Of a stretch of 32,000 bases of DNA, positions 2,552-29,747 are shown one piece after another. The notes under the pieces were generated by a model. It saw only the letters and a program-made list of their open reading frames with translations, had not been told where the DNA came from and did not search any database. The position numbers and the translations under genes were made by a program. Source of the DNA: Candidatus Saccharimonadota bacterium (GTDB taxonomy: Bacteria; Patescibacteriota; Gracilibacteria; Absconditabacterales; Absconditicoccaceae); contig CP006913.1 in assembly GCA_000503875.1 (NCBI GenBank), forward strand, positions 330,001 to 362,000. The letters run 5' to 3'. Position 1 is the first letter of the stretch. Each line of letters starts with the position of its first letter.

Positions 2552-2557
2552 AAATAA

Positions 2558-2632: not shown

Positions 2633-2639
2633 ATGCAAA

Positions 2640-2856: not shown

Positions 2857-2863
2857 GTATTAA

Positions 2864-2938
2864 TGGAGCCAACTATCGGACTTGAACCGATGACCCACCG
2901 CTTACAAGGCGGTAGCTCTACCGCTGAGCTAAGTTGGC
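2864..2938 (-). tRNA. tRNA-Thr(TGT), CCA encoded
   Basis: Acceptor gccaact/agttggc, anticodon stem-loop accgc-cttgtaa-gcggt, T-loop ggttcaagtcc. Confidence 0.9.
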
Positions 2939-2963
2939 ATCAAAGAAGCCTTAGGCTCCTTAT

Positions 2964-3233: not shown

Positions 3234-3269
3234 AGAGGGACAATAATAATTAAAATACAAATTATAATA

Positions 3270-3342
3270 CTCCGAGGGTGGGACTCGAACCCACGACCCA
3301 GTGGTTAACAGCCACTTGCTCTACCAACTGAGCTACCGCGGA
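3270..3342 (-). tRNA. tRNA-Asn(GTT), no CCA encoded
   Basis: Anticodon stem-loop agtgg-ctgttaa-ccact, T-loop ggttcgagtcc. One C-U mismatch in the acceptor stem. Confidence 0.8.
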
Positions 3343-3430
3343 CTAGCTGGATACAAAAAAATCCAAATTTTAGCGAACGACTTTATAGGAATTCAAATTC
3401 ATTTTTCAATAGATTCTGTATTATTTTATA

Positions 3431-3511
3431 TACCGGGGACAGGACTCGAACCTGCACACCGTAGGGCACTTGGTTCTAAGCCAAGCATGTCTACCATTCC
3501 ATCACCCCGGC
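3431..3511 (-). tRNA. tRNA-Leu(TAG), long variable arm
   Basis: Anticodon stem-loop cttgg-cttagaa-ccaag, variable arm tgccctacggtgt, T-loop ggttcgagtcc. Confidence 0.85.
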
Positions 3512-3519
3512 ATCTAATA

Positions 3520-3592
3520 CTCAGGAGATAGGACTCGAACCTATAACCACCTGATTCAGAGTCAGGTGCTCTACCAATTAAGCTACCCCTGA
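3520..3592 (-). tRNA. tRNA-Gln(CTG)
   Basis: U1:A72 with G73, anticodon stem-loop cctga-ctctgaa-tcagg, T-loop ggttcgagtcc. Confidence 0.8.
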
Positions 3593-3638
3593 ACACCAAG
3601 ATTATTTATTTTTAGTTTATTATAATTTTTGCGGAGGA

Positions 3639-3700
3639 TGGAGTCGAACCACCTGTCTTCGGGTTATGAGCCCAACGAGATACCGTTTCTCTACCCCGCA
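3639..3700 (-). tRNA. tRNA-Met(CAT). The anticodon stem is initiator-like (three G:C pairs); Ile2-lysidine identity is not excluded.
   Basis: Anticodon stem-loop ttggg-ctcataa-cccga, T-loop ggttcgactcc, acceptor tgcgggg/ctccgca. Confidence 0.75.
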
Positions 3701-3709
3701 ATATTTTCC

Positions 3710-3780
3710 CTGGGGAACTAGGATTCGAACCTAGACTGACGGAGTCAAAGTCCGCTGTCCTACCGTTAGACGATTCCCCA
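3710..3780 (-). tRNA. tRNA-Gln(TTG)
   Basis: Acceptor tggggaa/ttcccca, anticodon loop ctttgac, T-loop ggttcgaatcc. Confidence 0.85.
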
Positions 3781-3870
3781 ATGCAATCTCAAAAAATACA
3801 TATCCAAACGGATCGTGATGCCTGTATAGAGATTTTGTTTTCTATTTCAAGCTCTTTTTTAAAGAAAAAT

Positions 3871-3920: not shown

Positions 3921-4553
3921 TTATTGTTGAATTGGAGCAACTGGTTGTTGGATTGGAGCAACTGGTTGTTGAATTGGGGCAACTGGTTGTTGAATTGGGG
4001 CAACTGGTTGTTGAATTGGGGCAACTGGTTGTTGAATTGGAGCAACTGGTTGTTGAATTGGAGCAACTGGTTGTTGGATTGGAGCAACTGGTTGTTGGAT
4101 TGGAGCAGCATTAGCTTGATAATTTTGTGATAGGAATTGTTGTGTATCAAGTGGAGCTGTTGGTTTTTCAGCAACATAATTTTGAGCACCTTCCAAAACA
4201 GTTGATGTTCCTGTTTGTACTATTTGGTTAGCTTGATTTCCTATTGCATCAAGAGTATTACCTATTTTATTAAAAAAATTTGCTCAAGGCATATTCTGTA
4301 CTTGTGGTTGTTGAATTTGTACTCAACCTTGTATTGGTTGTTGTTGAGAAACAACTGGTGTAGCTGGTACTGGTGCTGCAATTTTGGCAATAAAATCAAC
4401 AATTCATTTTAATATTTTATCAAAAACTCAATCTTCTTGAACAACAGGTTGAATTTGTTGTTGAGGAATTTGTTGAGGCATATTTTGAATTGGAGCAACA
4501 GGTTGTTGAATTACCCCATTAGCTTGTTGATTTTGGATTTGCATAGGATCCAT
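3921..4553 (-). CDS. Q/P-rich low-complexity protein (210 aa) with a C-terminal PVAPIQQ heptad array
   Basis: ATG at 4553 is in frame with track ORF 3921-4196. The gap contains 4 TGA and no TAA or TAG. TAA stop at 3921-3923. Confidence 0.7.
3924..4112. repeat. 21-bp tandem repeat, about 9 copies (ttgttgRattggRgcaactgg), encoding PVAPIQQ on the minus strand
   Basis: Direct reading shows units starting at 3924, 3945, 3966 ... 4092, with only 2 variable positions per unit. Confidence 0.95.
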
Positions 4554-4764: not shown

Positions 4765-5664
4765 GTGGAACAATTGCAATATCAATGATCTTGAGAAAGA
4801 ATAGATAGTTTTTTATCTAAACATTTTTCATTATCGAGAAATTTTTTTCAACATATTCTCAAAAGATGATGAGTTTTAGTAAATAGTAAACACGCAAAAA
4901 AATCGCTTCAATTACAATTAAATGATACGATAGAAATAGATAATTTTCAAAGATTTCTAGATGATCAAGCGATGGAAGAAGCGCCAAAGATAGAAATACC
5001 TATTATATATGAAGAAACAGATTTTCTTGTTATTAATAAGCCAAAAGGGGTTCTTTCTCATCCAAGAACAATTTGGGAATTACATGAACCATCAGTTTCT
5101 GGTTTTCTTTACCATAAATATAAATGATTACCAAGTATTGGAAATTTCATTAGAGCAGGGATTCTCCATAGATTAGACAAACAAACCGACGGATTAATGA
5201 TTGTTGCCAAGACAGAAAAAGGATTGGCACATTTCAAAAAATTATTTCAAGAAAAATCAGAAAGCCAAGAACAATCAGATAAAGAGGCTGTTCATCTCAA
5301 AAAATTTTATCGTGCAACTTGTGAGATTACGTCAAAGGGAAAACAATTTTTACAAAAAATAGAAAATAATCTGCCTTTTACTATCGAATCGCTCGTTGTT
5401 CCCAAACTTCCTCATAGCATATCTAAGATAGGTATCACAAAAATTCTCAAGTATACGATTACTCCAGATCAAAAAAGAGTAACAATAAATTTAGAAATTC
5501 TTACCTGAAGAACACATCAGATTAGATATCATTTGTCTCAAGCAGGATTGCCAATAGTCGGGGATTATCTCTATGGAACAGATACCTGAGAAAATATGCA
5601 GCTAACTGCATGGAAACTGATATTTGAAGATGTAGAAGGAAAAATAAAAACTTTTGAAATATAA
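4765..5664 (+). CDS. rluD: RluA-family 23S rRNA pseudouridine synthase with an N-terminal S4 domain (RluD-like)
   Basis: GTG at 4765 follows an in-frame TAA. Motifs read: ERIDSFLSKHF..SRN, HRLDKQTDGLMIVAK, and T-[TGA]-RTHQIR, which is GRTHQIR. TAA stop at 5662-5664. Frame 1 throughout. Confidence 0.85.
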
Positions 5665-5775: not shown

Positions 5776-5805
5776 ATAAAAAAAGCCACACTATTAGCAT
5801 GGCTC
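5776..5805 (-). terminator. Intrinsic terminator of the GNAT cassette
   Basis: Stem agcca/tggct (5784-5788 / 5800-5804) followed on the minus strand by a 7-8 nt T-run. Confidence 0.6.
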
Positions 5806-5811
5806 TTAATA

Positions 5812-6741
5812 TTATTTTTCCTGTGTTTTATCATGCTTTTTTATGTTATATCTTATGATATATTTCTCAAAGATATTAGGAACCTTTATCATGATAGCGG
5901 TCTCTTCGGTATTACCAAAGAGCTCATTGAAAATAGTTCCAAAACATTGCATACCAATAGACAAACGACCATAAAGAGCAATAAGTATAGATGCATTAAA
6001 CCTTTTTGCCAACATACTAAAATCCTCTTCAAAGTTATCTGTAAAAGTAACATCTACAGAAAGGTCACCATATGGACGAATAAGTCCATATTCACCTTTG
6101 GGCTTAATCAAAGAACTATTCTTTGATGGAAAGTATCTATCGAAAAAATGATAAATAGGATCTAAATTACCCAATTGAGGATAAAGGGTAACTTTCCCAA
6201 TAAGAAATGTTACTGGATTGGTCCAAGATATAGATCCTGAATTTTTTTTATTTATCCAGAATCCTAATCCATCAAATAAAGCTTCCAAAGCAAATGACCT
6301 CTGATAATCTGGTTGAACAAATGCCCGTCCGAATTCAGCAGTATAAGGGAGATATTTTTCCACAAACCTTTTGCTTAAATGAAAATAGCTTGTTAATGGA
6401 GAAAATGATTCCTTATTGATTGCCGAATTACGAAGTTTTAACAATGTTTGGATTCGATATCCACCAGCAATTTCATGTTTTTTTGGATCCCAAATAACCA
6501 ATTGTTCGAAATATTTATCGAATTCATCAATATCAGTAGATTTACCAGTTCCTGCCTTTATGTGCCTAAAAGAAATCTCTCTCAGTCGTCCAATTTCCTT
6601 CATAACAGAAGGGCATTGTTCAGGCGTTACAACATAAATTTCAAAACCACCACGATTTGACGTTTTCAGTAGAAATTCTTCTCTTAATTCTGCTCTGAGA
6701 AGATGTCTGGGTTGCGGATCGATAATTTTTTCTTCATTCAT
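5812..6741 (-). CDS. GNAT-superfamily N-acyltransferase of the OlsB / hemolysin-like type (Acetyltransf_5-like), 309 aa
   Basis: Intact ATG..TAA ORF with no TAA, TAG or TGA before its TAA stop. Motifs read: IGRLREISF, HEIAGGYRIQTL, AEFGRAFVQPDYQ. It contains no TGA, and its CGA/CGG codons fall on conserved Arg positions. Confidence 0.75.
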   Translation of the reverse strand: MNEEKIIDPQPRHLLRAELREEFLLKTSNRGGFEIYVVTPEQCPSVMKEIGRLREISFRHIKAGTGKSTDIDEFDKYFEQLVIWDPKKHEIAGGYRIQTLLKLRNSAINKESFSPLTSYFHLSKRFVEKYLPYTAEFGRAFVQPDYQRSFALEALFDGLGFWINKKNSGSISWTNPVTFLIGKVTLYPQLGNLDPIYHFFDRYFPSKNSSLIKPKGEYGLIRPYGDLSVDVTFTDNFEEDFSMLAKRFNASILIALYGRLSIGMQCFGTIFNELFGNTEETAIMIKVPNIFEKYIIRYNIKKHDKTQEK

Positions 6742-6784
6742 ATGTTTTTCTTTTTAGTTTTTTTTCTTTTTATTTAGCGGAAAA

Positions 6785-6812
6785 AATATATCCAATTGAT
6801 ATAAAATGTCAA
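6785..6812 (-). promoter_or_regulatory. Sigma70-type promoter of the GNAT cassette (TTGACA-16-TATATT), followed by an A-rich AAAACTAAAA leader
   Basis: Plus-strand tgtcaa at 6807-6812 and aatata at 6785-6790. Leader motif at 6752-6765. Confidence 0.55.
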
Positions 6813-6831: not shown

Positions 6832-8538
6832 CTACTTAGAAAAATCTTTATTTAACGTGAGAAGTTGCTGTTTTTGTTCATGAGAAAGGTGTGGATTTTT
6901 GAGTGTTTGCTGGATAAGCGATTTAATTGTTTGTCCAAGGGTTTGTTTAATAAGTTGGATTTTCTTCTCTTCTGTTTTGAGGTCAAATTCTTTTTCCCAT
7001 CGAAGTTGATGCTGATTGAGTGAGGTAATAATTTCCTGGTCTTTGGTTTCAAGCAGAGGAGTGAGTGGATTATTATCTAAAGTGAGAAAAAATTCTTTGA
7101 GAGCCAAAAGCATAGACCAAAGAGTAGGTGTTTCCTGATGTTGTTCAAAAAAATCCTGATAAAACAAAGCCGCAAAAAGAAGCTCTCTAGAAGGCTGATA
7201 AAGAGTGCTTTGTTGTTGCTTTTGTCTGCCATGAGTTTTCCCTTCATTTTGAGAATATTGTTTATATTGAGATCGAGTAAATTCAAAAGGAGAATGAAGA
7301 GTATCGCTTATAAGTTGGATATAATGTTGCTGTAAGGAAATATTATTGATTTTTTGAACAAGACCAAATAAGATATTGAGGATTTTCTGCTTGTCGATAG
7401 GTGATGTGATATCATATTGTGTTCTGATATAGGAAAAGACTGCAGAAAATCCATCTTCTGCTTCCTGCAGAATCTGGGCAAAATGCTCTTTACCCGAAGG
7501 GGAGTTCGCAAGATCATCTGCATCTTTATATGGTTTAGGGAGGATAAGTTGTTTGGGAAAAAGATCTTGCTGATAAGCAAGGGAAAGTGCTCTCTGAGTT
7601 GCATTTTGCCCAGCCGAATCACCGTCAAACAGGAAGTACACGGTATCAGTATATCTTTTCAAAATCTTGATATGTTCTTCGGTTAATGAAGTTCCAGAGG
7701 TTGCCACCGCAACAGGAAATCCCAGTCTATGCAAAGCAATAACATCCATTTGTCATTCTACCACAATAAGATAGCCGAACTGACTAATGTGTTGTTTCGC
7801 CCAATTGAGTCCGTATAAAATTTTTGATTTTTCAAATGCTGGATGCTCAGAACTATTGAGATATTTAGGGGTATCGTTGGGATCTAATACTCTTGCACTA
7901 AATCCAATAATATTGTTCATCGTATCAAAAATAGGAAAGGTAATTCTTTTTTTGAAAAAGGTATAAAAATCTGAATTTTTACTCGGTTTAATCAATGATG
8001 ATTGAATAAGATCATTATCACTAAATCATTTGCCTTTGAGAAAATTCCATAAATCATAGGAACTATCTGGTGCAAATCAAACACCGAAGTGGTGAATAGT
8101 TTCTGTATCTAATTTTCTTTTTTCTTGTAAATAGGTTTTTGCTTCTGATGATTTTTCCAAAGCATCAACAAAAAATTGTTGAGCTAACTTATGTATTCTT
8201 TTGATTTTTTCTTTTTCATCAGCATAATGGTCCAATTTTTTACTATCAACATCATATTTGGTGATATCTATATTAGCATCTTTCGCCAAGAGTTTTATCA
8301 CATCCCAAAAATCTATTTTTTCATATTCTTGGACAAAGGTAAAAACATTTCCTCCTTTACCACATCCAAAACATTTGAAGATCTGTTTCTGTGGAGAAAC
8401 CATAAATGATGCAGTTTTCTCGTTATGAAAAGGGCAGCAACCAGAGTAGTTGCTTCCAGCTCTTTTGAGTGAAACATGCCTTGAAATAACATCTACAATA
8501 TCGACGCTACTCAAAATATCATCAGTAAGTTTGGACAC
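6832..8538 (-). CDS. dnaG: DNA primase
   Basis: Fragments 8077-8538, 7753-7995 and 6832-7749 share a frame and are joined only by TGA. Motifs read: zinc finger CPFHNEKTASF..CFGCG, FGV-[TGA]-FAP, and TOPRIM EG.MDVIALH...FDGDSAG. GTG start, TAG stop. Confidence 0.9.
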
Positions 8539-8996: not shown

Positions 8997-9053
8997 ACCA
9001 TATAATTAATAATTAAAAATACAATACTGAATTACTGACTTTTGTATACAATT

Positions 9054-12000
9054 TTAATCTATTTGCAACTCTATTTTTTGGAGAGGTTGTTTTGTTGCTA
9101 TTTTATTCTTTGATCTAATAAATAAACCCAAGGAAATAATTCTTCTAACCTTAGCAATTTCTTCAAGCAATGTCTTGTTTATATAGTGATGTGACCAAAG
9201 TGGTAAGTGAGTTAAATGAATAGATTCTATAGATTGTTTTCCTACAAATTGTTGTAATTGCAAAAATAAATGTTCACTAATAAATGGTGCAAATGAAGCA
9301 CAAAGTTTGATATAATGAAGAAGTACGGTATATAATGTTGCATATGCTGCATATTTATCTCAATCCATTCCTGATGCCCAGAATCTTCTTCTCGATCTTC
9401 TAATATACCAATTATTGAGTTTATCGATAAATCCAAGAGCTGCTTTTGCTCCAAGATCAAGTTGATATCCATCCATTGCTTGTTCTAATTCTTGAGCAGT
9501 ATCATGAAGGGCAGCTAAAATCCATTTATCGAGTTCATTATTGATGGTATAGGTAGGAATAGATATACTTTCTAGATGTTTAAGATGTAATTTTTCTGAT
9601 GTTGCATATGCTGTTTGCCAAAGGGTATCAATATAGGTTTCATGTGAAATTAAGAGAATATTTTTTCCAGAATATTGTTGTTTGATTTCTTCATAAAAAT
9701 TCAAAATTCATTCATTATCACCAAGTCTTTCATCAACAATTAATTTTATGTCTTTTGTTCTATAGGTAGTCATTGTTTTCTTGATACTTTCAGCAGTCTG
9801 TTGTGCTCTTGTCAAGGATGAACAAACAATTACGTCAGCATCTATTCTCAAAATCTGTTCAATGAAATTTGCCTGATGTAAACTAGATTCTCATTGGGTA
9901 GTGAGTTTTCCATCGTCACCAGCATCCGCTTGTGCATGTCTCATTACATAAAGATTTGGCGTTGTATACAAAAAATTATCTACTTTTGCATAGGTTTCAA
10001 AAAATTTATAAGCATTTGTTAATGCACTAGTGAAATCTTTATATACTTGATCAACTCCTTTTTCACTAAATCTCACGGGTTCTGCCTTTACCGCAGGGGA
10101 GGAAAGGAGATACATTCTATATGCATCAGAACCATATTTTTCGAAAAGTGTTTGCGGCTCTGGATAATTTTTGAGTTTCTTGGACATTTTCTTACCATCT
10201 TCGGCAAGTACCATACCATTAATAATCACATTATTGAAAGAATTTTGTTTCATAACAGCATTTCCTACGACATGCATAGTTCTAAACCAACCTCTTGTTT
10301 GGTCAAGTCCTTCGATAATAAAGTCCGCAGGATAAATAAATTGTTTTGCTCCTTTTGTAGAATACGTTTGATTTCCTAAATAATTAGCTTGCCCAAATGG
10401 CATAGCTCCTGATTCAAACCAACAATCCATAACTTCCAAAATTCTTTTATAGACGTTTCCTTCAATAGTAAACCGATAATTGTCTACATATGGTTTGTGT
10501 AAATCTACCTGCTTATTATAAGTATTATCCCAATAATGAATTCCAAATTCTGCATTTTCCAACAAAAGTTCTTTTCTATGTGAATGATAATCTTTTTGAG
10601 CAAAAGAATTTCTACACATTGCCATAGTATCATTGTGGGCAACATAAAGAAGAGTTGCACTTGGGTATTTTGTATTCCAATCAGCAACACAAGTTTTGGT
10701 CCTTTCTAACATCAAAGAAACGGTTTCTCATTCATTGGATATTGGTTGTGTTCGGTCATATCGATTCAACGTGTCGCAGCTACAAAATTTATCTTGAATA
10801 TCAGGAGAAAGATGATCAGTAATACGATAATCAATAAAAATATTATTTCAAAGATCAAAAATAGTCTGATTTTTTTTGTCATGGATATAATCCATTATTT
10901 TTCATTCACTCCATAATTTCTGGTAATGTTCAATTTGTTTGTAATACTTGTTTTTTATTTCTTCTACAAGTTTTTTATCATATAATTCTAGCAATGTTGG
11001 CTCAATAGTTAAAAGAGCTCTCTGCAGCGGAGAAAGAACGATAACAAGATTGTTTTTGTCCGTTGTATATTTTACCAGTTGCTTAGGTAATGCCTGTGCC
11101 TGTTTGTTTCCTTCTTCAGAGAGAACTGGTTTTCCGAAGCTATCGCAGAGTTTCTTTTCGTTGTAATCTGTTTTGCCATGTCTAAGAAAGATATTTCTGG
11201 TAATATTCTTAGATCATGTTAATGTGTTAATATATAATTCATCCAAAGTTCATATAACAATCTTTTCTTCTAAATTATTTTCGTTTTCCCAAACAGGAAT
11301 TGGAGATCATCGATATCTATTTCTTGCAAGGTTCCAATCTGGAGCAGAAGAAAGAACATCAGAAAATCTATTTTTGATAGTTTCTGGTACAAATCCAATG
11401 TGATCTGCATTAGGTACGGTAGTTTTGGTAAGTTCTGGTTCTTTGATAAACCAGCTTGTAAGAGCTTTACAAATCAATGGTGTATCACATCTTCGACAAT
11501 GAGGATAAGAGTGACTATATGATTTTTGAAGAACTAATTTTCCTTCTAATTTAAGTCTAGCGATAATGTCTTTGTTGGCATCATAAACTCTGATTCATTG
11601 ATATTCTGGTACTTGATCCGTAAATTCCGCATAATCATTGAGTGGTAAGAAAAGCCAATTTTTGGCATCTTCTCTTGGCAGAAAAGCAGCGACTGCTTCA
11701 AAATCTTCTATACCAAAACTTGGTGCAATATGCACAATTCCAGTTCCATCTTCTGTGCTTACAAAATCAGCTGCTATAACTTTACAAAATTGATCTCTGT
11801 AATTATCAGGAAGTGCTTTTTTGATATACGGAAGAATTGGTTCATAAGAAAGTCAGATTATATGTTCTCATTTGAAAATATTTACTATCAAATATTCTTC
11901 TGGAGATTTATAATATTGTTTGAGTAGAGCTTGTGCAATAATATAATATTCTTTGCTATTTTTATCAAACACCATAACATATTCTATATGTTTTCCTACA

Positions 12001-14657: not shown

Positions 14658-17600
14658 ATGAAAAAACATTGATTATTATTGTTCGTTCTTAGTGCAATTA
14701 GTTTGATAGCATGATTCAGTCATATACAAGCACAACAAACAACTAATTGAGAAATCAGATTAGAAATCAATGCATGAAATTCTTGTTGTATCTATGGTAC
14801 ATGAATCACATTTTGAAATAAAGATGTAAGCTTTTGAATAACTGAATTTTCTGGTGATTTTCTTAATTATTTTGGGGATAATGCTCGAAGCTGTAAAGAC
14901 ATGCAAGGAACGGAAACAGGATGGGCAATGTCCATTAGTATGTCTGGTTCATTAGTAAATGAAAAATGAAACATAATCCCTGCTCAAAATGTAAAAATAA
15001 GCTTTAGTCCAACAGTACAAAAAGCAGGAAATTGTATTCCGTACATAGGATGATGAAATGATATTCCCTTAAGTTGAACAATTCCTTTAGTTCAAAAAAA
15101 TGGAAACATTCCCGAAAATTATGGAAAAATCTGTGTATTAGAAACAACAGGAGTGAATTTGAAAGTGATAACAAATACTGGTCAGTCACCATGAAATTAC
15201 GTAGGAACGTTAGTGATAGATCTTCCAAATTTTATTTCCAATCAATGTGAAATTGGAGATTTACTAGAAGGAACATTACTTGATGCTGAAACAGATGGAG
15301 TTTCGTATCTCTCTTATCCATCATGAATATTTGGAGTAACGCAAAGCTGAGGAAAATTTAATTATAGAGAGGGTGATATTGTTTCGTTTAAACTTGCAAA
15401 TATAGAACTTGGAAGTGTAGCCCCTAGAAACGATAAAAAGGTTTTTGTGCCAGAATTATTAAATCTCCCAAGAACTGCATTTAATGAAGAAAGATCTATT
15501 AAAATATCTCAACTTCTTCAGTCGCTAGATAATGATAATAATCCTGATAATGGAATTATTATAACGCCAGAAGTCATCAACGCAATTACACAAACAGGAA
15601 GTATTGAAAATATTAATATAAATACGGTAGTTACAAGTGTAGGAAAAACTGTAAGAAATACAGTAGATGTTCAAGAACATCTTGGTGGAACATTGAAAGA
15701 ACAATTTATGATAGGAGTATCATTAGTTAAAGATATTAAAATATGAACAAGTTGATCTGATCTTACATGAGTAATGATTTTTGATAATAAAATGTATTTT
15801 GTCTCTGATGATGGAATTCATGGAAAAGAACTTTGGGTAAGTGATGGAACAAATTTATGAACGTATATGCTCAAAGATATCTGGCCAGGAACAATGGGTT
15901 CTTTTCCAGATAAGTTTTTATTGGGAAGTGGTCAATTATTTTTTGTTGCAACTGATGGAGAATATGGAAGAGAATTGCGAAGTACAGATGGAACTGAAGA
16001 AGGAACTCAAATGATTATAGATATTGTCATAAATGGAAATACATCAAGTCCTGGTAATTTTACGATTATGAATAATAAAGTGTATTTTGCAGCAACAGAT
16101 GGAATAAAATGACAAGAATTATGGACTAGTGATGGAACAATAAATGGAACATATATGATTAAAGATATCTATTCTGGTGGAAATGGTTCATCACCTTCAT
16201 TTTTAGTGGAAATGCAATGAAAATTATATTTTTCGGCTTCTAGTCTTTCGGGATCACAGCAATTATGGGTCAGCGATGGAACAGAAAATTGAACTTATGT
16301 AGTTAAGCCATGAGTAAATATATGAGTTCAAGTTCTTACTGTTGCTGAAAATAAAATATTTTTTCTATGAAACATCTCTCCGTATGGACAAGAGCTTTGG
16401 GTAAGCGATGGAACAGAAAGTTGAACATATATGGTCAAAGATATTTATCCTTGAACAAATAATTCATCTATAAGTTATATAAATCCCCAATTAGATAAAA
16501 TATATTTTCAGGCAAATAACGGAATAAATTGATCAGAATTGCGAATAAGTGATGGAACAGAAAGTTGAACATATATGGTAAAAGATATTTATCTTGGTAC
16601 GTGAACATCTTATATTTATAATAGCATGATTTTATGATCAGGTAAGGTGTATTTTAAAGCAACAGATGGTGTTCATGGATATGAACCATGGGTAAGTGAT
16701 GGAACAGAAAGTTGAACGTATATGCCAACAGATTTCATGCCACATTGAAGAAATTGAAGTCCGAGTAACTTAAATTATTGCAATAATAAATTATCTATGA
16801 GAGCTACAGAATGAAGTAGTATTAGATTTTTAGCATATGATTTAGTTAACGAAACAAAAGTAAATTTATGAGCTACAAGTATTGCAGCAGCTTGTTTAAA
16901 TACAACTTTATTTTTATCATTATATAATTGATCATATGGAGTAGAATTATACAAGACAGATTGAACTGTTTGAGGAACAGTTATGGTTAAAGATATAAAT
17001 CCAGGGACGAATAACTGAGATCCCAATAATTTAACAGTAGTTTGAGATAAACTTTATTTTGTAGCAAACAGTTCTTGATACTGAGTAGAATTACGAGTAA
17101 GTGATGGAACAAATATAGGAACATATATGGTCAAAGATATTTATTCTGGAACAACAAGTAGTAGTCCATATAATTTTATAGGATTTTGAGATAAAATTTA
17201 TTTTTTAGCAACTACTTCATGATATGGATATGAATTGCGAGTAAGTGATGGAACTAATGGAGGAACATATATGATGAAAGATATCTATTCTGGAAATACT
17301 ACTTCATCAATAAGTAATCTTATAGTATATTCAGGAAAACTTTATTTTAGTGCAAATAATTGAATTAATTGAGCTGAGTTACGAGTAAGTGATGGAACAG
17401 AAACATGAACATATATGGTAAAAGATATTTATTCTGGTAATAATAATTCTAGTCCAAGCAACTTTATTATTTACTTAGATAAATTATATTTTAGAGCAGA
17501 TAATAATACAAATTGAGTAGAATTATGGACAAGTGATGGAACAGAAAGCGGTACGTATATGGTAAAAGATATTTATTCTGGAAGTAGTGATTCATATCCT

Positions 17601-19562
17601 GCTAATTTAACTATTTTTTGAGATAAAATTTATTTTTGAGCACAAAGTTCATGAAGTTGATATGATTTATGGACAAGTAATGGTACAGAAACTGGAACAT
17701 ACATAGTTTATAATAGTTTGTCGCCAAATTATATAACGGTATTTTGAAATAAATTGTATTTTTCAGCCTATAATTCATTATATTGACAAGAACTATGGAC
17801 TAGTGATGGAACAGAAATTTGAACGTATATGGTCAAAGATATTTATACGTGAACAAATAATTCAGTACCATGATCATTTACATCAGCATGAGATGAATTA
17901 TTTTTCTCTGCTAATGATTGAATACATGGACAAGAATTACGAGTTACAGATGGAACAGAGTGATGAACACATTTATTTGATGATATTAGTCCTGATGGAA
18001 ATTATTTAGACTTTACCTTACTTGGAATACAAGAAGATAAAATATATTTAAGAGCAAGTTTTTTGACACAAACATGAATGGAATTATATATTTCACAAGA
18101 TGAATTTCAGTCCATGTCTTTGGTTAAAGATATATATGTATGACGAAACGCTAATTCAAGTCCAAGTAATTTTATAATTAATTGAGGTAAAGTATATTTT
18201 ACTGCATATGCTGCTGGATATTGAATAGAATTGTGGGAAACAGATTGAACAGAAAATGGAACTCAATTAGTCAAAGATATAAACCCATGAGCAGCAAGTT
18301 CAAATCCATATACTTTGATACCAAAATGAGATAATATTTTCTTTAAGGCAACGACATCTACTAACTGACAGGAACTTCGAATGACAGATTGAACAGAATG
18401 ATGAACCAAATTAGTCAAAGATATATATCCGGGTACAACAAGTTCAAGCATTGATTATCTTGTTGCAAATGATGATGCTCTTTATTTTTTTAGGGCAGAC
18501 AACGGCCTTGATTGATTAGAACTGTGGACTAGTGATGGAACAACTAATGGGACAACTCTAGTTAAAGATATATATATAGATTGATTAACATCTACTCCAA
18601 CACCAGAAGTTTTTATAAATAATAAATTATATTTTTCAGCTGCCGATAATAGATGACGTGAATTACGAACAAGTGATGGAACAAGTTGAGGTACTTCCTT
18701 ATTGAAAGATATAAATACAAGTGCTGGTTTAAATAGTAATCCATATAATTTTACAAAGTTATGAAATATTACATATTTTGCAGCTTGAGATGGAATAAAT
18801 TGAACAGAGTTACGAAGAAGTGATGGTACAGTTTGATGAACGTATATAGTTAAAGATATTTATGTCTGAGCAAATTATTCATCAACACCAAATAATTTAA
18901 CAGTTATGGATGATAAAATATATTTTGCAGCAAATAGCTCTTGATATTGAGTAGAATTATGGATTACCGACGGAACAAATGGATGAACACAAATAATAAA
19001 AGATATTTATTCATGAGCTAGTTCTTCATCACCTGTTAATTTAAGGGTTGCATGAGATAAAATATATTTTGCTGCAAATAATAATTATGGACAAGAATTG
19101 CGAGTAAGTGATGGAACAGCAAATGGTACTCAAATGATAAAAGATATCTACTCAGGAGCTAATAGTTCAAATCCACAAATACTTACAGTTATGGATGATA
19201 AAGTATATTTTAGAGCCAATAATTATTATAGTTGATCGGAGCTCCGAGTAACAGATGGAACCATATCTGGAACTGTTTTAGTAAAAGATATAGATCCAAG
19301 ACTCTATTACTCTTCTACTCCAAGTATTTTAACTTCAATCGGAAATAAACTTTATTTCTCAGCAATCAATCAACTCAATGGAAACGAGCTTCGAGTAACA
19401 GATGGTATAATTAATGGAACGGGAACCTATCTTGTAAAAGATCTTTGGAGTGGTTCACAAAATTCAAATCCTTCAAATATTGTTTCGTTAAATAATATTC
19501 TTTATTTCACTGCTCAAGATCAACTCAATTGATTAGAACTTCGAAGATTTGTAGAAGATTAA
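14658..19562 (+). CDS. Secreted giant ELWxxDGT-repeat protein, 1634 aa (signal peptide, ~370-aa N-terminal domain, ~25 repeats)
   Basis: ATG at 14658 and signal-like MKKHGLLLFVLSAISLIAGFSHIQAQ. Frame 3 is held through to TAA 19560-19562. I checked most of the length codon by codon and it contains dozens of TGA and no TAA or TAG. The track shows only 2 short pieces of it. Confidence 0.85.
15780..19559 (+). repeat. About 25 tandem coding repeats of ~50-55 aa. Consensus: ..(K)LYF.A.d...G.EL(W)vSDGT..GT.mVKDIy.G..sS.P.n.
   Basis: The periodic SDGT/TDGT and VKDIY strings were read directly from the sequence. Confidence 0.9.
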
Positions 19563-25395: not shown

Positions 25396-25671
25396 CTATG
25401 CATTATTTTGCATAGCTTCTTTAGGAAATCCGACGAAGCAAATATAATTTGCTTCTTTAGAGCCAAAGAAAATCTTTAATTTTTCAAAGTCTTCTTCTGC
25501 AATACCTCGAGGTATGCCCATATAATTTTCAAATTCCTCGAAAGGAATTGGGCATGTTTTTGAAGAGAGGTTTTCTAAAGATAGATTAATATCTTTACAA
25601 TCTTTTTCATCGAAACTATGCGAAGAAATGAAAATTTGTTTTCTTAAGTCCGTTTTGTGAGGCCAATTCAT
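25396..25671 (-). CDS. Hypothetical 91-aa protein (TGA-free cassette)
   Basis: Intact ATG..TAG ORF with its own promoter and AAAACTAAAAACTAAAAAG leader. No recognisable motif. Confidence 0.5.
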   Translation of the reverse strand: MNWPHKTDLRKQIFISSHSFDEKDCKDINLSLENLSSKTCPIPFEEFENYMGIPRGIAEEDFEKLKIFFGSKEANYICFVGFPKEAMQNNA

Positions 25672-26822: not shown

Positions 26823-28181
26823 ATGAATGAAAAAAAGATTTTTGTGTTGGATACCAATGTTATCCTTCATGATAAAAAGTGTATTTTCAATTTCAAAGAG
26901 CATGATATTGTAATTCCAACCATTGTCCTTGAAGAATTAGATAAGTTCAAAAAAGGAAATGAAGAACTGAATCATCATGCGAGAGAATTTAGTCGTATTA
27001 TGGATAAATTTCGTAAGAAAAAAGAAGTAAAACCAGGTGAAGAAAACAAATTAATTGCTGCTTTACCAAATGGTGGCGTTTCTTTAGGCCCTGATAAAGG
27101 ATTGATCCAAGTAAAAAGCACTGGAATTATTCCAGAAGAGGTGAAGTCCATTTATTTTGAAGACACTCCTGATAACAGAATTCTAGGATTAGTATTAAAA
27201 CTATCACAGGATGAGACGGTAAAAAGACAAGTCATTCTAATAACTAAAGATATAAATCTGCGAATAAAAGCAGATGTTATAGGCTTAGAGGCTGAAGATT
27301 ATAAAAATGACAAGGTTTCGTTTGAAGGATATCTGGGTAGAGCAACAGTGAAATATCCAGCAAAGAAAATTACGGATATCTTCAAAACCAATCAACAAGA
27401 TGTTGACCCTAGTCTGATTAAATTTTATCCAGATGGAATTCCAGAAAATATGTATTTTATCTTGGACGGAAAGAGTAACTCTGCTTTAGCAAGATATTCT
27501 GAAAAAAAATTGATCTGTGTTGAAAAACAAAACGTTTTTGGGATCAAACCAAGAAATTCAGAACAAACATTTTCTGTTGATGCATTACGTCTTGAACAGG
27601 TTAAATTGGTCTGTTTGTCAGGCAAAGCAGGAACGGGAAAAACATTGCTTGCGATCGCTGCCGGATTGGATTGTCTCAAAAATCAAATGTGTGATCAGAT
27701 TATTATAGCTGCAGCAACGGTTCCACTGGGTAATAAAGAGATTGGATTTTTGCCTGGAGATGCTCAGGAAAAAGTATCTCCGTATATGCAAGGGCTATTC
27801 GATAACCTGGCATTTATTAAGAGACAAATGAGTCTTAAAGACAGAGAATGGGTCGAAAGTGCACAAAAAGATGGAAGAATTTTAATACAACCTTTGGCTT
27901 CTATTCGGGGTCGTAGTTTAAATGACACCTTCTTTATTATTGATGAGTCTCAAAATCTCAACCCTCACGAAGCGAAAACCATTGTAACTCGTGCGGGTCA
28001 AAACACAAAAGTTGTGTTTTGCGGTGATGTGACGCAAATTGATTCACCCTATTTAGATGCATATTCAAACGGATTGTCTCATGTTGTTGCAAAAATGACA
28101 GGGCAGCCAATGTTTGCACATATCGCATTGGAAAAAGGGGAACGAAGTCCGCTCGCTGAATTAGCAGCAACGCTTCTCTAA
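26823..28181 (+). CDS. phoH2: PhoH2-type protein: N-terminal PIN domain fused to a PhoH-like P-loop ATPase, 452 aa
   Basis: I start it at ATG 26823 (MNEKKIFVLDTNVILHD), not at the track TTG at 26730. Motifs read: PIN IPTIVLEELD, Walker A SGKAGTGKT, SIRGRSL, Walker B FFIIDESQN, GERSPLAELAA. No TGA. TAA stop. Confidence 0.85.
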   Translation: MNEKKIFVLDTNVILHDKKCIFNFKEHDIVIPTIVLEELDKFKKGNEELNHHAREFSRIMDKFRKKKEVKPGEENKLIAALPNGGVSLGPDKGLIQVKSTGIIPEEVKSIYFEDTPDNRILGLVLKLSQDETVKRQVILITKDINLRIKADVIGLEAEDYKNDKVSFEGYLGRATVKYPAKKITDIFKTNQQDVDPSLIKFYPDGIPENMYFILDGKSNSALARYSEKKLICVEKQNVFGIKPRNSEQTFSVDALRLEQVKLVCLSGKAGTGKTLLAIAAGLDCLKNQMCDQIIIAAATVPLGNKEIGFLPGDAQEKVSPYMQGLFDNLAFIKRQMSLKDREWVESAQKDGRILIQPLASIRGRSLNDTFFIIDESQNLNPHEAKTIVTRAGQNTKVVFCGDVTQIDSPYLDAYSNGLSHVVAKMTGQPMFAHIALEKGERSPLAELAATLL

Positions 28182-28382: not shown

Positions 28383-29222
28383 ATGGATAAAAATCTAGAA
28401 GATCCGGGATATATCTCGTTAACTGAAGGAATGCGTTTGGCTGGTTACGTGCCTGAGCATAATCCTATTGACTATCAAGAGGTTTGGGAATTTTTCGAAC
28501 GAATAAGTAAAATAAACTTAGAAGTAAGAGACCCAAAACTTCAAAAATTATTTACAATTATTGATCAACAAAAGGAACAAGAACAATCTTTCGATGAACA
28601 AGAATACCTTAAAATATTGCTTTCTGTGGTTATGGATTTAGATTTAGAAAACCATGAAACAATAATTAAAGAAATAGCAGTGTTTCACGAAAGAGATGTA
28701 GATGAAGATGAGAAAGATATGTTTGTAAATATGCTGATAAGTAGTGTTGAAGCGAAAAAAGAACATTATCTTTCTAAACTTAACGTTGTTCCAGTTACAG
28801 AAGCATCAAAACCTTCTGTTGAAGAAACAGAAGTTGTTAAGCCAATCAAAAGAAAAAGATTAAAAATTGTTCAAGAACAGGTATTTATATTACATAATAA
28901 AAAAGAGACACCCACTCCTGTTACAAAAAACAATCGTAATAGGAAAAGTTCTGTTTCTTCAAGACAAAAAGTTATCTCTGTTTTGGAGAAAAGTCAAAGT
29001 TTCTTAATATATCAGGAAGCATTCCCTTTACCAAAGGGGATAAAACGTATTCGTATCAAAGAAAATTTTGATAAAATACTTCAATTTATTGAGGAATATA
29101 TAACAAAGAAAAATCTTCCCGTACGAATAATTGTTGAAAAGGACAGAGCAAAAGTTCTTTTCAAAGATATTAAAAAGACTAGAATGCGGCACAAAACTCA
29201 AATTCGAGTGAAAGCTGCATAA
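28383..29222 (+). CDS. Hypothetical 279-aa protein with an acidic N-terminal half and a strongly basic C-terminal half (TGA-free cassette)
   Basis: Intact ATG..TAA ORF with its own promoter and terminator. I recognise no family. Confidence 0.6.
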   Translation: MDKNLEDPGYISLTEGMRLAGYVPEHNPIDYQEVWEFFERISKINLEVRDPKLQKLFTIIDQQKEQEQSFDEQEYLKILLSVVMDLDLENHETIIKEIAVFHERDVDEDEKDMFVNMLISSVEAKKEHYLSKLNVVPVTEASKPSVEETEVVKPIKRKRLKIVQEQVFILHNKKETPTPVTKNNRNRKSSVSSRQKVISVLEKSQSFLIYQEAFPLPKGIKRIRIKENFDKILQFIEEYITKKNLPVRIIVEKDRAKVLFKDIKKTRMRHKTQIRVKAA

Positions 29223-29330: not shown

Positions 29331-29747
29331 ATGGGAGAAAACGAAATTAAACAGAAAATGGAAAGCAACACTTCCTTTCTGAATGAAACAAAAGCTCTTG
29401 CAATTAGTACCGAAGATGCAAAAGAGATTCATGAGTTAATGAATCTCGAAGACCTTATTCATGGTATTAATATCCGAAGAGATTTAAAAAACAAAACAAG
29501 GTTTGGTACGTTGTCACCTTCGTTAATCAAAAACTCTTTTTTAACTGAAGATGATTTTATGTATCTATTTGAAGTATTACAAGGTAGATACGAAATGTCT
29601 TCATGTGCATACAAAGACTATGTTAAGGCACAAATAAATGAACTTTGTGTCGAAGCTATCAAGAGAGAATTTATTAGCGTAAGGGCAATGGTATTTGCCA
29701 AACACCCCGCTATTAGAAATTTAAAGGCGGTTAGGGAATTAATGTAA
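29331..29747 (+). CDS. Hypothetical 138-aa protein (TGA-free cassette)
   Basis: Intact ATG..TAA ORF. I recognise no family. Confidence 0.55.
   Translation: MGENEIKQKMESNTSFLNETKALAISTEDAKEIHELMNLEDLIHGINIRRDLKNKTRFGTLSPSLIKNSFLTEDDFMYLFEVLQGRYEMSSCAYKDYVKAQINELCVEAIKREFISVRAMVFAKHPAIRNLKAVRELM

What the first reader, a model, noticed from the sequence alone, without database searches (positions are those of the whole stretch)
5776..6812. Isolated GNAT (OlsB/hemolysin-like) N-acyltransferase cassette with standard-code signatures, between rluD and dnaG
The 309-codon ORF has no TGA. Its CGA/CGG codons sit on the most conserved arginines of this acyltransferase family:
- IG-[CGA]-LREISF (plus strand 6586-6588)
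- AGGY-[CGA]-IQTL, the G.YRL motif (6454-6456)
- AEFG-[CGG]-AFVQPDYQ (6325-6327)

It has its own TTGACA-16-TATATT promoter, an AAAAAAAACTAAAAAG leader and an intrinsic terminator. It sits antiparallel to rluD and tandem to dnaG, both of which are TGA/CGA-recoded.

These are the same signatures as the 26.7-29.8 kb cluster about 20 kb away, so this is not a single contiguous island. Such enzymes make N-acyl amino acid or ornithine lipids. A lipid-modifying enzyme in a membrane-parasitic lineage is functionally suggestive, but that link is speculation.
Basis: partly seen in the sequence, partly recalled or inferred. Interest (0 to 1): 0.7.

Follow-up and report, generated by a model that had tools for sequence, protein, structure and literature searches.

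The report
Standard-code gene cassettes in recoded bacterium
In a bacterium that reads TGA as glycine and CGA/CGG as tryptophan, this lipid-making acyltransferase gene, along with at least four other small cassettes nearby, has been kept for a long evolutionary time in the ordinary genetic code, so its working protein seems to be made by decoding machinery the bacterium is not known to have.

Summary

**What the gene is.** ORF 5812-6741(-) is a GlsB/OlsB-type N-acyl-amino-acid synthase (PF13444; confident GNAT/AHL-synthase-like model). The source is the SR1/Absconditabacteria genome RAAC1_SR1_1.

**It is not a recent insert.** Thirteen orthologues sit in the same dnaG–rluD interval. They form one SR1-only clade and are under purifying selection (dN/dS about 0.1, dS about 1). 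Codon usage for the other 17 amino acids is fully native.

**It follows the standard code.**
- TGA makes up 0 of 230 Gly codons, against 426 of 1208 in flanking genes.
- CGA/CGG interchange only with Arg codons, at Arg sites invariant in 113 of 113 outside homologues.
- In flanking genes CGA/CGG interchange with TGG.

**It belongs to a class.** PhoH2 (26823-28181), 28383-29222, 29331-29747 and 25396-25671 share the signature. Each has a TTGACA-type promoter, an A-rich CTAAAA leader and its own terminator.

**The locus varies.** There are two deep allele groups, plus empty, truncated and frameshifted versions.

**Mechanism is unresolved.** My best inference is that the functional product needs standard-type decoding, most likely in the host cell. 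I found no published description.

The parts
6785..6812 (-). Sigma-70-type promoter of the acyltransferase cassette: TTGACA, 16 nt, TATATT.
   Evidence: 11 of 12 consensus matches. It is the only intergenic exact TTGACA-N15-18-TATANT match in the window. Both hexamers and the TGGA before the -10 are conserved upstream of both allele groups in nine relatives.
6742..6784 (-). A-rich, T-poor 5' leader with no Shine-Dalgarno sequence. It contains AAAAAAAACTAAAAAG at 6765-6750.
   Evidence: 68% A in positions -40 to -1, against 20-53% for 16 SR1-coded genes of the window (Mann-Whitney p = 0.0013). A-rich leaders are kept in orthologues. Across loci, 17 of 18 ORFs with an A-rich leader are TGA-free.
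5812..6741 (-). GlsB/OlsB-type N-acyl-amino-acid synthase ORF: 309 codons, no TGA, Trp encoded only by TGG.
   Evidence: PF13444, 51.5 bits. NCBIfam GlsB 224 bits and OlsF N-acyltransferase region 145 bits. AlphaFold model pLDDT 92.9. Foldseek finds acyl-homoserine-lactone synthases and GNATs. dN/dS 0.09-0.15.
6586..6588 (-). CGA codon at Arg52 (IG-R-LREISF).
   Evidence: Arg in 113 of 113 outside homologues. Orthologues carry CGA, CGT, CGC or AGA here.
6454..6456 (-). CGA codon at Arg96 (GGY-R).
   Evidence: Arg in 113 of 113 outside homologues. All 12 other orthologues have AGA or AGG, so the CGA arose within this lineage.
6325..6327 (-). CGG codon at Arg139 (EFG-R-AFV).
   Evidence: Arg in 113 of 113 outside homologues. 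Orthologues carry CGG, CGA, AGG or AGA, which needs several independent switches.
5781..5807 (-). Intrinsic terminator (12-pair hairpin plus T-run) directly after the TAA stop.
25396..25671 (-). Fifth cassette of the same class: 91-aa ORF of unknown function, 0 TGA, 1 CGA. It has promoter TTGACA (25730-25725), 16 nt, TATACC (25708-25703), and leader AAAAAAAACTAAAAACTAAAAAG.
26823..28181 (+). PIN-PhoH (PhoH2/YlaK-type) cassette of the same class.
   Evidence: PF13638 plus PF02562. 0 TGA among 86 Gly codons in three orthologues. Its CGA/CGG lie on Arg columns invariant in 51 of 51 homologues, while the neighbouring cca gene swaps CGA with TGG. Leader is 60% A.
28383..29222 (+). 279-aa cassette of unknown function, same class. 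It has promoter TTGAAA-16-TATAAT (28267-28294), an A-rich leader with two AACTAAAA motifs, and terminator 29227-29260.
29331..29747 (+). 138-aa cassette of unknown function, same class. It has promoter TTGTAA (29263-29268), 16 nt, TATACT (29285-29290), and a leader that is 75% A.
6832..8538 (-). dnaG, an upstream neighbour written in the SR1 code; used as a control.
   Evidence: 3 TGA. Its CGA codons align with TGG in orthologues.
4765..5664 (+). rluD, the convergent neighbour written in the SR1 code; used as a control.
   Evidence: 7 TGA. A CGA in an orthologue aligns with TGG.
14658..19562 (+). ELWxxDGT-repeat protein, which proves within the window that CGA means Trp in this genome.
   Evidence: The repeat's Trp position is TGG 10 times and CGA 12 times. 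The gene has 89 in-frame TGA.

Best explanation
**What it is.** The ORF encodes a cytoplasmic GlsB/OlsB-type N-acyltransferase. By family function, it would move a fatty acyl group from acyl-ACP or acyl-CoA onto the amino group of glycine or a similar amino acid. The product would be an N-acyl amino acid, a lyso-aminolipid of the commendamide type. No partner O-acyltransferase was found among the window proteins I scanned.

**How the gene is organised.** It is a self-contained cassette with a consensus sigma-70 promoter, a leader that is A-rich and lacks a Shine-Dalgarno sequence, and its own terminator. It has long occupied the dnaG-rluD interval of one Absconditabacteria clade. There it exists as two deep allele groups that are swapped among lineages and sometimes lost.

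**What is shown.** This cassette and at least four others in the window evolve under the standard code. TGA is excluded, CGA/CGG behave as synonymous Arg codons, and Trp is always TGG. Every neighbouring gene uses TGA for Gly and CGA/CGG for Trp.

**What is inferred.** The protein under selection is the standard-code translation. It must therefore be made by decoding machinery that reads CGA/CGG as Arg and does not depend on TGA meaning Gly. Ordinary SR1 translation is not known to do this: it has a tRNA-UCG assigned to Trp and no tRNA-ACG.

**The mechanism I commit to.** The cassettes are expressed in the cytoplasm of the standard-code host cell to which the epibiont attaches, after transfer of DNA or mRNA. 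Acyl-ACP is available there. The code difference would keep the products inactive inside SR1. This last step is inference only.
For: **Source genome and its code.**
- The protein is 100% identical to one on a 1,177,760-bp SR1 contig. The PhoH protein carries a P148_SR1C locus tag.
- For RAAC1_SR1_1, Codetta infers UGA = Gly and CGA = Trp. The genome has one tRNA-GCG, one tRNA-UCG, one tRNA-CCG and no tRNA-ACG (PMC8629427).
- Within the window, the ELW repeat has CGA 12 times and TGG 10 times at its Trp position.

**Contrast with flanking genes in 13-15 genomes.**
- Flanks: 31 CGA/CGG columns. 22 are shared only with TGG and 1 with both; partner codons are TGG 156 and Arg 1.
- GNAT: 12 CGA/CGG columns. 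10 are shared only with Arg codons and 0 with TGG; partner codons are Arg 61 and TGG 0.
- Fisher test on columns: p = 1.6e-8.
- TGA is 0 of 230 Gly codons in GNAT and 426 of 1208 in the flanks.

**Codon turnover.** Between the window and L001, 13 of 20 conserved Gly codons of GNAT changed, none through TGA. In the flanks 25 of 90 conserved Gly columns involve TGA.

**Selection and residence.**
- dN/dS 0.09-0.15, dS about 1.2, like the flanks.
- Arg52, Arg96 and Arg139 are invariant in 113 of 113 homologues.
- SR1 copies are monophyletic, 100/100. All sit in the same interval.
- Codon usage for the other 17 amino acids matches SR1-coded genes: r = 0.91, against 0.93 for the control and -0.19 against a Bacteroidota-type contig.

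**A class, not a single gene.**
- The same signature appears in the PhoH2 cluster of three genomes.
- Leader, promoter and terminator architecture is shared.
- An A-rich leader goes with absence of TGA: 17 of 18 against 15 of 89, p = 4e-10.
Against: - No route is known by which CPR epibionts deliver nucleic acid to a host. Nothing in the window shows one: the VirD4/TraG-like ATPase at 21050-23506 is a weak Pfam hit, and no relaxase or transfer origin was found.
- The cassettes are scattered among essential genes rather than grouped in a transferable block.
- PhoH2 and DUF502 look like ordinary housekeeping or accessory proteins, not effectors.
- All cassettes end in TAA or TAG, never TGA. That would be slightly unexpected if they were read only under the standard code.
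- tRNA identities in this genome are computational predictions. Shulgina and Eddy themselves say ambiguous decoding cannot be excluded.
- Codetta left CGG undecided here and inferred Arg for the sister species, so CGG may natively be Arg.
- The host of this lineage is unknown.
- Orthologue counts are not phylogenetically independent.
- Two of the "decayed" copies (L002, L013) could be assembly errors.
Confidence: 0.4

Rival explanations
1. Ambiguous decoding inside SR1. The tRNA-UCG is charged with both Trp and Arg, or tRNA-CCG is still an Arg tRNA. Accessory cassettes tolerate a mixture of products. TGA is avoided for a separate reason such as expression level or accuracy.
For: - tRNA identity is only predicted, and ambiguity is explicitly left open.
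- CGG is undecided for this genome and inferred as Arg for its sister species.
- Some probably highly expressed SR1-coded genes are also poor in TGA: the cold-shock gene has 0 of 9, p108 has 1 of 8.
Against: - It does not explain why CGA/CGG at Arg sites is confined to TGA-free genes with A-rich leaders (1 Arg partner among 157 in the flanks).
- It does not explain why these genes never use CGA for Trp, although 35% of Trp codons elsewhere in the window are CGA/CGG.
- dN/dS of GNAT equals that of housekeeping neighbours, so partial Arg-to-Trp replacement at 3-8 invariant or conserved sites per protein should be selected against just as strongly.
- 0 of 230 Gly codons is far beyond the TGA poverty seen in expressed genes.
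Confidence: 0.2
2. Code-locked conditional genes. In normal SR1 cells the products carry Trp at essential Arg sites and are inactive. They become active only when a standard-code invader, such as one of the code-11-compatible phages predicted to infect Absconditabacteria, brings Arg-tRNA(UCG) or RF2. This would make the cassettes infection-triggered defence or suicide functions.
For: - Code-11-compatible, TGA-free phages are predicted for Absconditabacteria (PMC10746230).
- The locus turns over like a defence hotspot: deep alleles that disagree with the flank tree, plus empty, truncated and frameshifted versions.
- In the window gene all three CGA/CGG sit on invariant Arg sites.
- One cassette encodes a PIN nuclease-ATPase.
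Against: - GNAT, p279 and p138 have no PADLOC or PHROG match, and PhoH2 has only weak P-loop hits.
- Across all orthologues, CGA/CGG is not clearly enriched at invariant Arg sites. My tally from the table gives about 11 of 58 at invariant sites against 15 of 112 elsewhere.
- No phage carrying the needed tRNA or release factor was examined.
- A GlsB-like enzyme is not a known defence effector.
Confidence: 0.12
3. Foreign DNA not yet adapted. The cassette was acquired recently or repeatedly from standard-code donors (Bacteroidota-like), and its codons simply reflect the donor.
For: - The nearest non-SR1 homologues of both GNAT and PhoH2 are in Bacteroidota (about 40-52% identity).
- Presence and absence vary among close relatives.
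- The GNAT tree disagrees with the flank tree.
Against: - The nearest outside homologue is only about 40-45% identical, while SR1 copies are monophyletic at 100/100.
- All 14+ contigs carrying close homologues show the same dnaG-rluD context.
- dS within an allele group equals that of the flanks.
- Codon usage for 17 amino acids is fully native, and GC content is like the surroundings.
- New CGA/CGG codons arose inside the clade, for example Arg96 in the window lineage.
- No integrase or mobile-element genes were seen, and no close viral relative was found.
Confidence: 0.05
4. A decaying pseudogene that is no longer translated into anything useful.
For: The 3' half is deleted in L002, L013 is frameshifted, the gene is lost in L012, L015 and L016, and Arg52 is replaced by Ile in L014.
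Against: - About 300-codon frames remain intact in at least 10 lineages of a 31%-GC genome.
- dN/dS is 0.09-0.15.
- The promoter and leader are conserved.
- 34 columns are invariant across 40 family members including the SR1 copies.
Confidence: 0.03

Closest known systems
GlsB, the glycine-lipid N-acyltransferase of Bacteroides (the commendamide synthase type), and the N-acyltransferase domain of OlsF.
   Same: Full-length match to the GlsB model: residues 5-297 against model positions 1-299 of 303, 224 bits, and 254 bits for the second allele group. The protein also matches the OlsF N-acyltransferase region. It has the PF13444 domain and a GNAT/AHL-synthase-like fold. The nearest outside homologues are from Bacteroidota.
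   Different: The score is below the equivalog cut-off of 300. Identity is only about 40%. No glsA/olsA-type O-acyltransferase gene lies next to it, unlike the Bacteroidota-type contig L009. It sits in a genome of a lineage thought to lack fatty-acid synthesis (general knowledge of CPR bacteria, not tested here). The substrate is unknown.
OlsB, the ornithine-lipid N-acyltransferase.
   Same: Same Pfam family and the same general reaction type.
   Different: NCBIfam OlsB models score only 18-20 bits against cut-offs of 320-350.
Phage genomes that use two genetic codes in blocks (crAss-like and Lak phages), and code-11-compatible phages of Absconditabacteria/Gracilibacteria.
   Same: Genes obeying different codes lie in one replicon. 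In-frame TGA is strictly avoided so that genes remain readable where TGA is a stop (PMC10746230; preprints listed).
   Different: Here the replicon is a cellular chromosome. The standard-code genes are single scattered cassettes, not blocks. A sense-codon pair (CGA/CGG) has two meanings, not only a stop codon. No suppressor tRNA or release factor is seen, and the cassettes are inherited in fixed chromosomal positions.
Agrobacterium T-DNA genes (from my own knowledge).
   Same: Genes kept in a bacterial genome but built to be expressed by another organism's machinery. This is the analogy for the host-expression reading.
   Different: T-DNA is one bordered, transferable segment with a known type IV secretion route and eukaryotic signals. 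None of that is shown here.
The Absconditabacteria CGA/CGG-to-Trp reassignment (Shulgina and Eddy 2021).
   Same: Confirmed for every ordinary gene in the window and its relatives.
   Different: That work treats the code as genome-wide. The cassettes are a gene class that does not follow it. This may be why Codetta left CGG undecided for this genome and inferred Arg for its sister species.

Membership tests
Pfam PF13444 (Acetyltransf_5), GNAT superfamily | HMM score above the gathering threshold. | tested here: met
   51.5 bits against a cut-off of 22.4; residues 53-155 cover model positions 1-100 of 102.
Pfam PF13444 (Acetyltransf_5), GNAT superfamily | GNAT-type fold. | tested here: met
   AlphaFold2 model with pLDDT 92.9 and pTM 0.90. 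Best PDB matches are the acyl-homoserine-lactone synthases BjaI and MesI (E = 2e-5) and many GNAT acetyltransferases.
GlsB (NCBIfam NF053696, equivalog) | Score above the curated equivalog cut-off. | tested here: not met
   224 bits (window allele) and 254 bits (second allele group) against a cut-off of 300, although the alignment is full-length.
GlsB (NCBIfam NF053696, equivalog) | Adjacent O-acyltransferase gene (glsA) for the second acylation. | tested here: not met
   The neighbours are dnaG and rluD in every locus. No acyltransferase domain appears among the window proteins I scanned. The Bacteroidota-type contig L009 does have PF19576 next to its homologue.
GlsB/OlsB-type N-acyl amino acid synthases | Makes N-acyl glycine, ornithine or another N-acyl amino acid from acyl-ACP. 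| not testable with these tools
   Needs heterologous expression and lipid mass spectrometry.
OlsB (NF052555, NF052554) | Score above the curated cut-off. | tested here: not met
   20.3 and 18 bits against cut-offs of 320 and 350.
OlsF (NF052615) | Bifunctional protein with both O- and N-acyltransferase domains. | tested here: not met
   Only model positions 276-512 of 570 match; 145 bits against a cut-off of 620.
Recently transferred genomic island | Atypical base composition or codon usage. | tested here: not met
   GC is 0.33 against 0.28-0.41 for neighbouring genes. Relative synonymous codon usage for 17 amino acids correlates at r = 0.91 with SR1-coded genes, within the control range.
Recently transferred genomic island | Nested among donor sequences, or close homologues outside the recipient clade. 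| tested here: not met
   The SR1 clade is monophyletic, 100/100. The next-best outside hit is about 40-45% identical.
Recently transferred genomic island | Mobility genes or an insertion scar; variable presence. | tested here: inconclusive
   No integrase or transposase lies at the locus. The interval is cleanly empty in L012, L015 and L016, and alleles are exchanged among lineages.
Standard-code gene class in SR1 (proposed here) | No in-frame TGA although Gly codons turn over. | tested here: met
   0 of 230 Gly codons in 13 orthologues. 13 of 20 conserved Gly codons changed between the window and L001.
Standard-code gene class in SR1 (proposed here) | CGA/CGG interchange with Arg codons and never with TGG. 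| tested here: met
   10 of 12 columns are shared with Arg codons only and none with TGG. The flanks show the opposite.
Standard-code gene class in SR1 (proposed here) | Own TTGACA-type promoter, A-rich CTAAAA leader and own terminator. | tested here: met
Anti-phage defence systems (PADLOC) | Match to a known defence protein model. | tested here: not met
   No hit for the acyltransferase at E up to 0.1.

The most novel reading that the evidence does not exclude
Absconditabacteria keep a dispersed set of portable expression cassettes written in the standard code. Each has a broad-host sigma-70 promoter, a leader that is A-rich and independent of Shine-Dalgarno pairing, and its own terminator. 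The cassettes are decoded in the cytoplasm of the bacterial host or prey after transfer of DNA or mRNA. The epibiont's own recoding (CGA/CGG = Trp) would act as a safety lock that keeps the products inactive at home. The acyltransferase would then turn host acyl-ACP into lyso-aminolipids for membrane attack, or to supply lipids to a parasite that cannot make fatty acids.
Probability: 0.22. Interest if true: 0.97.

Novelty: categorically new. Interest (0 to 1): 0.86.

Why it matters
Genetic codes are treated as a property of a whole genome, and a change of code is seen as a firewall against gene exchange. Here a cellular chromosome carries two kinds of genes. Most obey the recoded SR1 code. A conserved, selectively maintained minority obeys the standard code, and a pair of sense codons has opposite meanings in neighbouring genes.

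Every explanation left open by the data would be new:
- cross-cell expression of parasite genes in the host;
- infection-triggered or conditional switching of the code;
- gene-class-specific ambiguous decoding.

There are practical consequences too:
- Code-inference tools and annotation pipelines mistranslate these genes or give undecided calls. The "?" and "Arg" calls for CGG in this genus may be examples.
- The cassette signature (TGA-free, CGA/CGG at Arg sites, A-rich CTAAAA leader) gives a simple way to list candidate host-interaction genes in uncultured episymbionts.

Tried and rejected
**Searches that found nothing useful.**
- Sequence search of solved structures found no homologue, only chance ribosomal L25 hits at E about 0.1.
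- PHROGs and PADLOC gave nothing for the acyltransferase or the two unknown cluster proteins.
- Viral-contig scans gave one 33%-identical relative of the acyltransferase and none of PhoH2.
- Rfam found only the ten tRNAs and no leader RNA family.
- tRNA scans of the window and 14 related loci found no tRNA-UCG, -CCG or -UCA to inspect.
- The metagenome scan with DnaG returned only four loci.
Extension through PhoH2 added 6 kb with no further cassette.

**Ideas tested and dropped.**
- Codon context around CGA/CGG shows no obvious difference between cassette genes and ordinary genes.
- A Bacteroidota-type promoter (TTTG / TAnnTTTG) is not what is conserved upstream. The conserved elements are TTGACA and TATATT.
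- Enrichment of CGA/CGG at invariant Arg sites holds for the window gene but is not clear across all orthologues (my tally).
- Genome-wide promoter-like matches are no more frequent than in shuffled sequence. The promoter claim therefore rests on conservation across orthologues, not on the scan.

Full report
**1. Where the window comes from and which code it uses**

Most long reading frames in the window are broken by TGA under table 11 and become whole when TGA is read through. The acyltransferase protein is 100% identical to a database protein from a 1,177,760-bp contig named candidate division SR1 / Patescibacteria. The PhoH protein carries a P148_SR1C locus tag. The unusual IleRS with NUDIX and two His_Phos inserts matches the published description of genome RAAC1_SR1_1.

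For that genome, Shulgina and Eddy's table gives UGA = Gly, CGA = Trp and CGG undecided. It lists one tRNA-GCG, one tRNA-UCG, one tRNA-CCG and no tRNA-ACG.

The window proves CGA = Trp on its own. In the 1634-aa ELWxxDGT-repeat protein, the Trp of the repeat is TGG ten times and CGA twelve times.

**2. The observation**

ORF 5812-6741 (minus strand) has 309 codons and no TGA. SR1-coded genes of the window use TGA for 33% of Gly codons, so the chance of none among its 20 Gly codons is 3e-4.

Its three CGA/CGG codons are at R52, R96 and R139. In an alignment with 113 non-SR1 homologues these columns are Arg in 113 of 113. The family has only five invariant Arg positions.

The promoter TTGACA-16-TATATT (6812-6785), the A-rich leader and the terminator (5807-5781) are all present. 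rluD has TGA but no CGA in this window. The cassette is not isolated.

**3. What the protein is**

- Pfam PF13444 at 1.8e-13.
- NCBIfam GlsB: 224 bits over the full length, below the equivalog cut-off of 300.
- NCBIfam OlsF: only its N-acyltransferase part matches.
- NCBIfam OlsB: only about 20 bits.
- The AlphaFold2 model is confident (pLDDT 92.9).
- Its closest solved folds are acyl-homoserine-lactone synthases and GNAT acetyltransferases.

It is therefore a GlsB/OlsB-type N-acyl-amino-acid synthase whose substrate is untested. No O-acyltransferase partner lies nearby. A Bacteroidota-type contig does have one next to its homologue.

**4. It is a resident gene, not a recent insert**

Close homologues (54-88% identity) occur only on contigs with the order IleRS, 108-aa gene, dnaG, acyltransferase, rluD.

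Searching genomes and metagenomes with DnaG brought more relatives:
- some with the same allele;
- some with a second allele group that is only 40% identical, in the same place (L011, L014, L017, L019, L020);
- three with a cleanly empty interval (L012, L015, L016);
- one copy with the 3' half deleted (L002);
- one frameshifted copy (L013).

All SR1 copies form one clade against sampled outside homologues (NJ bootstrap 100/100). Inside it are two deep groups.

The acyltransferase tree disagrees with the DnaG+RluD tree. Alleles are therefore old and exchanged or sorted among lineages. This is the behaviour of a variable accessory or interface gene.

Within an allele group, dN/dS is 0.09-0.15 and dS is about 1.2. 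Both values resemble the housekeeping neighbours.

Codon usage for the 17 amino acids other than Gly, Arg and Trp correlates at r = 0.91 with SR1-coded genes. The control gives a mean of 0.93 and a 5th percentile of 0.875. The correlation with a Bacteroidota-type contig is -0.19. The gene has fully adapted to its genome in everything except the codons that distinguish the two codes.

**5. The code contrast**

Codon-level comparison of the same loci:

| | Flanking genes (IleRS, p108, DnaG, RluD; 10-15 sequences each) | Acyltransferase (13 sequences) |
|---|---|---|
| TGA among Gly codons | 426 of 1208 | 0 of 230 |
| Columns containing CGA/CGG | 31 | 12 |
| ...shared with TGG only | 22 | 0 |
| ...shared with Arg codons only | 0 | 10 |
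| ...shared with both | 1 | 0 |
| Partner codons | TGG 156, Arg 1 | Arg 61, TGG 0 |
| Trp columns | TGG or CGA/CGG | always TGG |

Fisher's test on columns gives p = 1.6e-8.

Between the window and L001, 13 of 20 conserved Gly codons of the acyltransferase changed, and none changed through TGA. In the flanks, 25 of 90 conserved Gly columns involve TGA.

At invariant Arg139 the clade shows CGG, CGA, AGG and AGA in a pattern that needs several independent switches. The CGA at Arg96 is unique to the window lineage.

Under the SR1 code these would be repeated Arg/Trp flips at catalytic-grade positions of a protein under strong purifying selection. Under the standard code they are silent changes. 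The selected product is therefore the standard-code translation.

**6. A class of such genes**

*PhoH2 cluster.* PhoH2 (26823-28181) has 0 TGA among 86 Gly codons in three genomes. Its CGA/CGG lie on Arg columns invariant in 51 of 51 homologues. The adjacent cca gene swaps CGA with TGG. The two following genes of unknown function behave the same way.

*Shared architecture.* All four genes, plus a fifth 91-aa ORF at 25396-25671 found through its leader motif, share one architecture:
- a TTGACA/TTGAAA-type -35 box and a TATAxT -10 box;
- a leader of 35-85 nt that is 55-75% A and carries AACTAAAA-like motifs;
- their own terminator hairpin.

*Contrast with ordinary genes.* Ordinary genes here have short, T-rich upstream regions.

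*Conservation.* The acyltransferase promoter and leader are conserved in both allele groups.

*Association across loci.* Across twelve SR1 loci, 17 of 18 ORFs with an A-rich leader lack TGA, against 15 of 89 others (p = 4e-10, not corrected for orthology).

*Other members.* Relatives carry further cassettes of this kind: a DUF502 gene and a 262-aa ORF.

*Limit of the TGA criterion.* TGA poverty alone also occurs in a probable high-expression gene, the cold-shock gene. The defining trait of the class is CGA/CGG used as Arg.

**7. How it most likely works**

*Shown:* The gene is native, conserved and selected. It is readable as a functional enzyme only under the standard code. It belongs to a class with distinctive, portable expression signals.

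*Inferred:* The functional protein is made by machinery that reads CGA/CGG as Arg and for which TGA is not a usable Gly codon. The tRNA set reported for this genome does not provide that.

*Mechanism I rank first (about 0.2-0.25 on its own; 0.4 for the broader statement that standard-type decoding is required):* The cassettes are expressed in the standard-code host cell. In its favour:
- The signals would work in many bacteria.
- The enzyme's acyl-ACP donor exists in hosts, while CPR bacteria are generally held to lack fatty-acid synthesis. That is established knowledge, not tested here.

Against it: no transfer route is known, the cassettes are scattered, and PhoH2 and DUF502 do not look like effectors.

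*Rivals:*
- Ambiguous decoding in SR1 (0.2). It fails to explain the strict partition between gene classes, the exclusion of TGA and the TGG-only Trp.
- Code-locked genes activated by standard-code phages (0.12). This fits the hotspot-like turnover and the published code-11-compatible phages, but has no defence homology.
- Unadapted foreign DNA (0.05). It is contradicted by monophyly, synteny, dS and native codon usage.
- Pseudogene (0.03). It is contradicted by dN/dS and the intact frames.

**8. Comparison with what is known**

The enzyme is an ordinary kind: a GlsB-like protein that scores below the equivalog cut-off and lacks the glsA partner.

The coding regime is not ordinary. The nearest precedents are phages that use two codes in blocks, and TGA-free code-11-compatible phages of these bacteria. 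Those involve stop codons in viral genomes.

My literature searches found no description of standard-code genes conserved in recoded bacterial chromosomes. The genome paper does not mention them either.

**9. Verdict**

The finding is larger than stated: a conserved class of standard-code cassettes inside CGA/CGG- and TGA-recoded genomes, with the mechanism unknown.

Caveats:
- Orthologue counts are not independent.
- tRNA identities are predictions.
- Two of the "decayed" copies may be assembly errors.
- The trees are neighbour-joining on limited sampling.
- No expression data were available.

Noticed in passing
window 25396-25671 (-), promoter 25703-25730: A 91-aa ORF of unknown function has the same cassette architecture: TTGACA-N16-TATACC, leader AAAAAAAACTAAAAACTAAAAAG, no TGA, one CGA, and its own terminator.
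   Followed up: partly
window 14658-19562 (+): A 1634-aa ELWxxDGT-repeat surface-type protein has 89 in-frame TGA. Its repeat Trp position alternates between TGG (10) and CGA (12), a compact internal proof of the CGA = Trp reassignment.
   Followed up: yes
window 9054-13178 (-): The 1374-aa IleRS is interrupted by a NUDIX domain and two histidine-phosphatase domains. This was already described for this genome by Kantor et al. 2013. The arrangement is conserved in all relatives fetched.
   Followed up: partly
window 21050-23506 (-): A membrane-anchored VirD4/TraG-like coupling ATPase (PF02534 3.7e-8, TraG-D_C) is written in the SR1 code and is 89% identical in L024. It may be relevant to any nucleic-acid transfer idea, but I did not analyse it further.
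   Followed up: no
L002 9581-10201, L011 13088-13717, L014 12575-13180; window 2392-2474: Relatives carry a DUF502 membrane-protein cassette (TGA-free, A-rich leader, TTGACT promoter) right after tRNA-Val. The window has only 83 bp there, so this is another presence/absence cassette.
   Followed up: partly
L025 12440-13228: A 262-aa ORF in a more distant SR1 genome has the same architecture: TTGACT-N15-TATATC, a (CAAA)n leader, 0 TGA among 15 Gly codons, 3 CGA/CGG, and a terminator. This suggests the class extends beyond the genus.
   Followed up: no
L027 6577-6789 (about 5.6 kb right of PhoH2, just beyond the window end): The cold-shock protein gene has 0 TGA among 9 Gly codons but a T-rich leader and no CGA/CGG. 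TGA avoidance alone also occurs in probably highly expressed ordinary genes.
   Followed up: partly
published table (PMC8629427, supplementary file 5), genome GCA_000503875.1: Codetta left CGG undecided for this genome and called it Arg in the sister species. CGG is very rare there, so the standard-code cassettes may supply most of the informative CGG codons and cause those calls.
   Followed up: no
window 3921-4553 (-): A 210-aa Gln/Pro-rich protein ends in nine tandem PVAPIQQ repeats and has 4 TGA. A comparable gene lies in the same place in relatives.
   Followed up: no
window 2475-3781 (-) and 25812-25885 (+): A cluster of nine tRNA genes (Val, Glu, Asp, Thr, Asn, Leu, Gln, Met, Gln) surrounds rpsT and is syntenic in relatives; tRNA-Lys(CTT) lies apart. 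None of them reads TGA or CGA/CGG.
   Followed up: yes
upstream of p108 (window 8997-9053) and other SR1-coded genes: Ordinary genes show conserved -10-like boxes only a few to about 25 nt before the start codon and no Shine-Dalgarno sequence. This suggests leaderless or very short-leader mRNAs, in contrast to the long A-rich cassette leaders.
   Followed up: no
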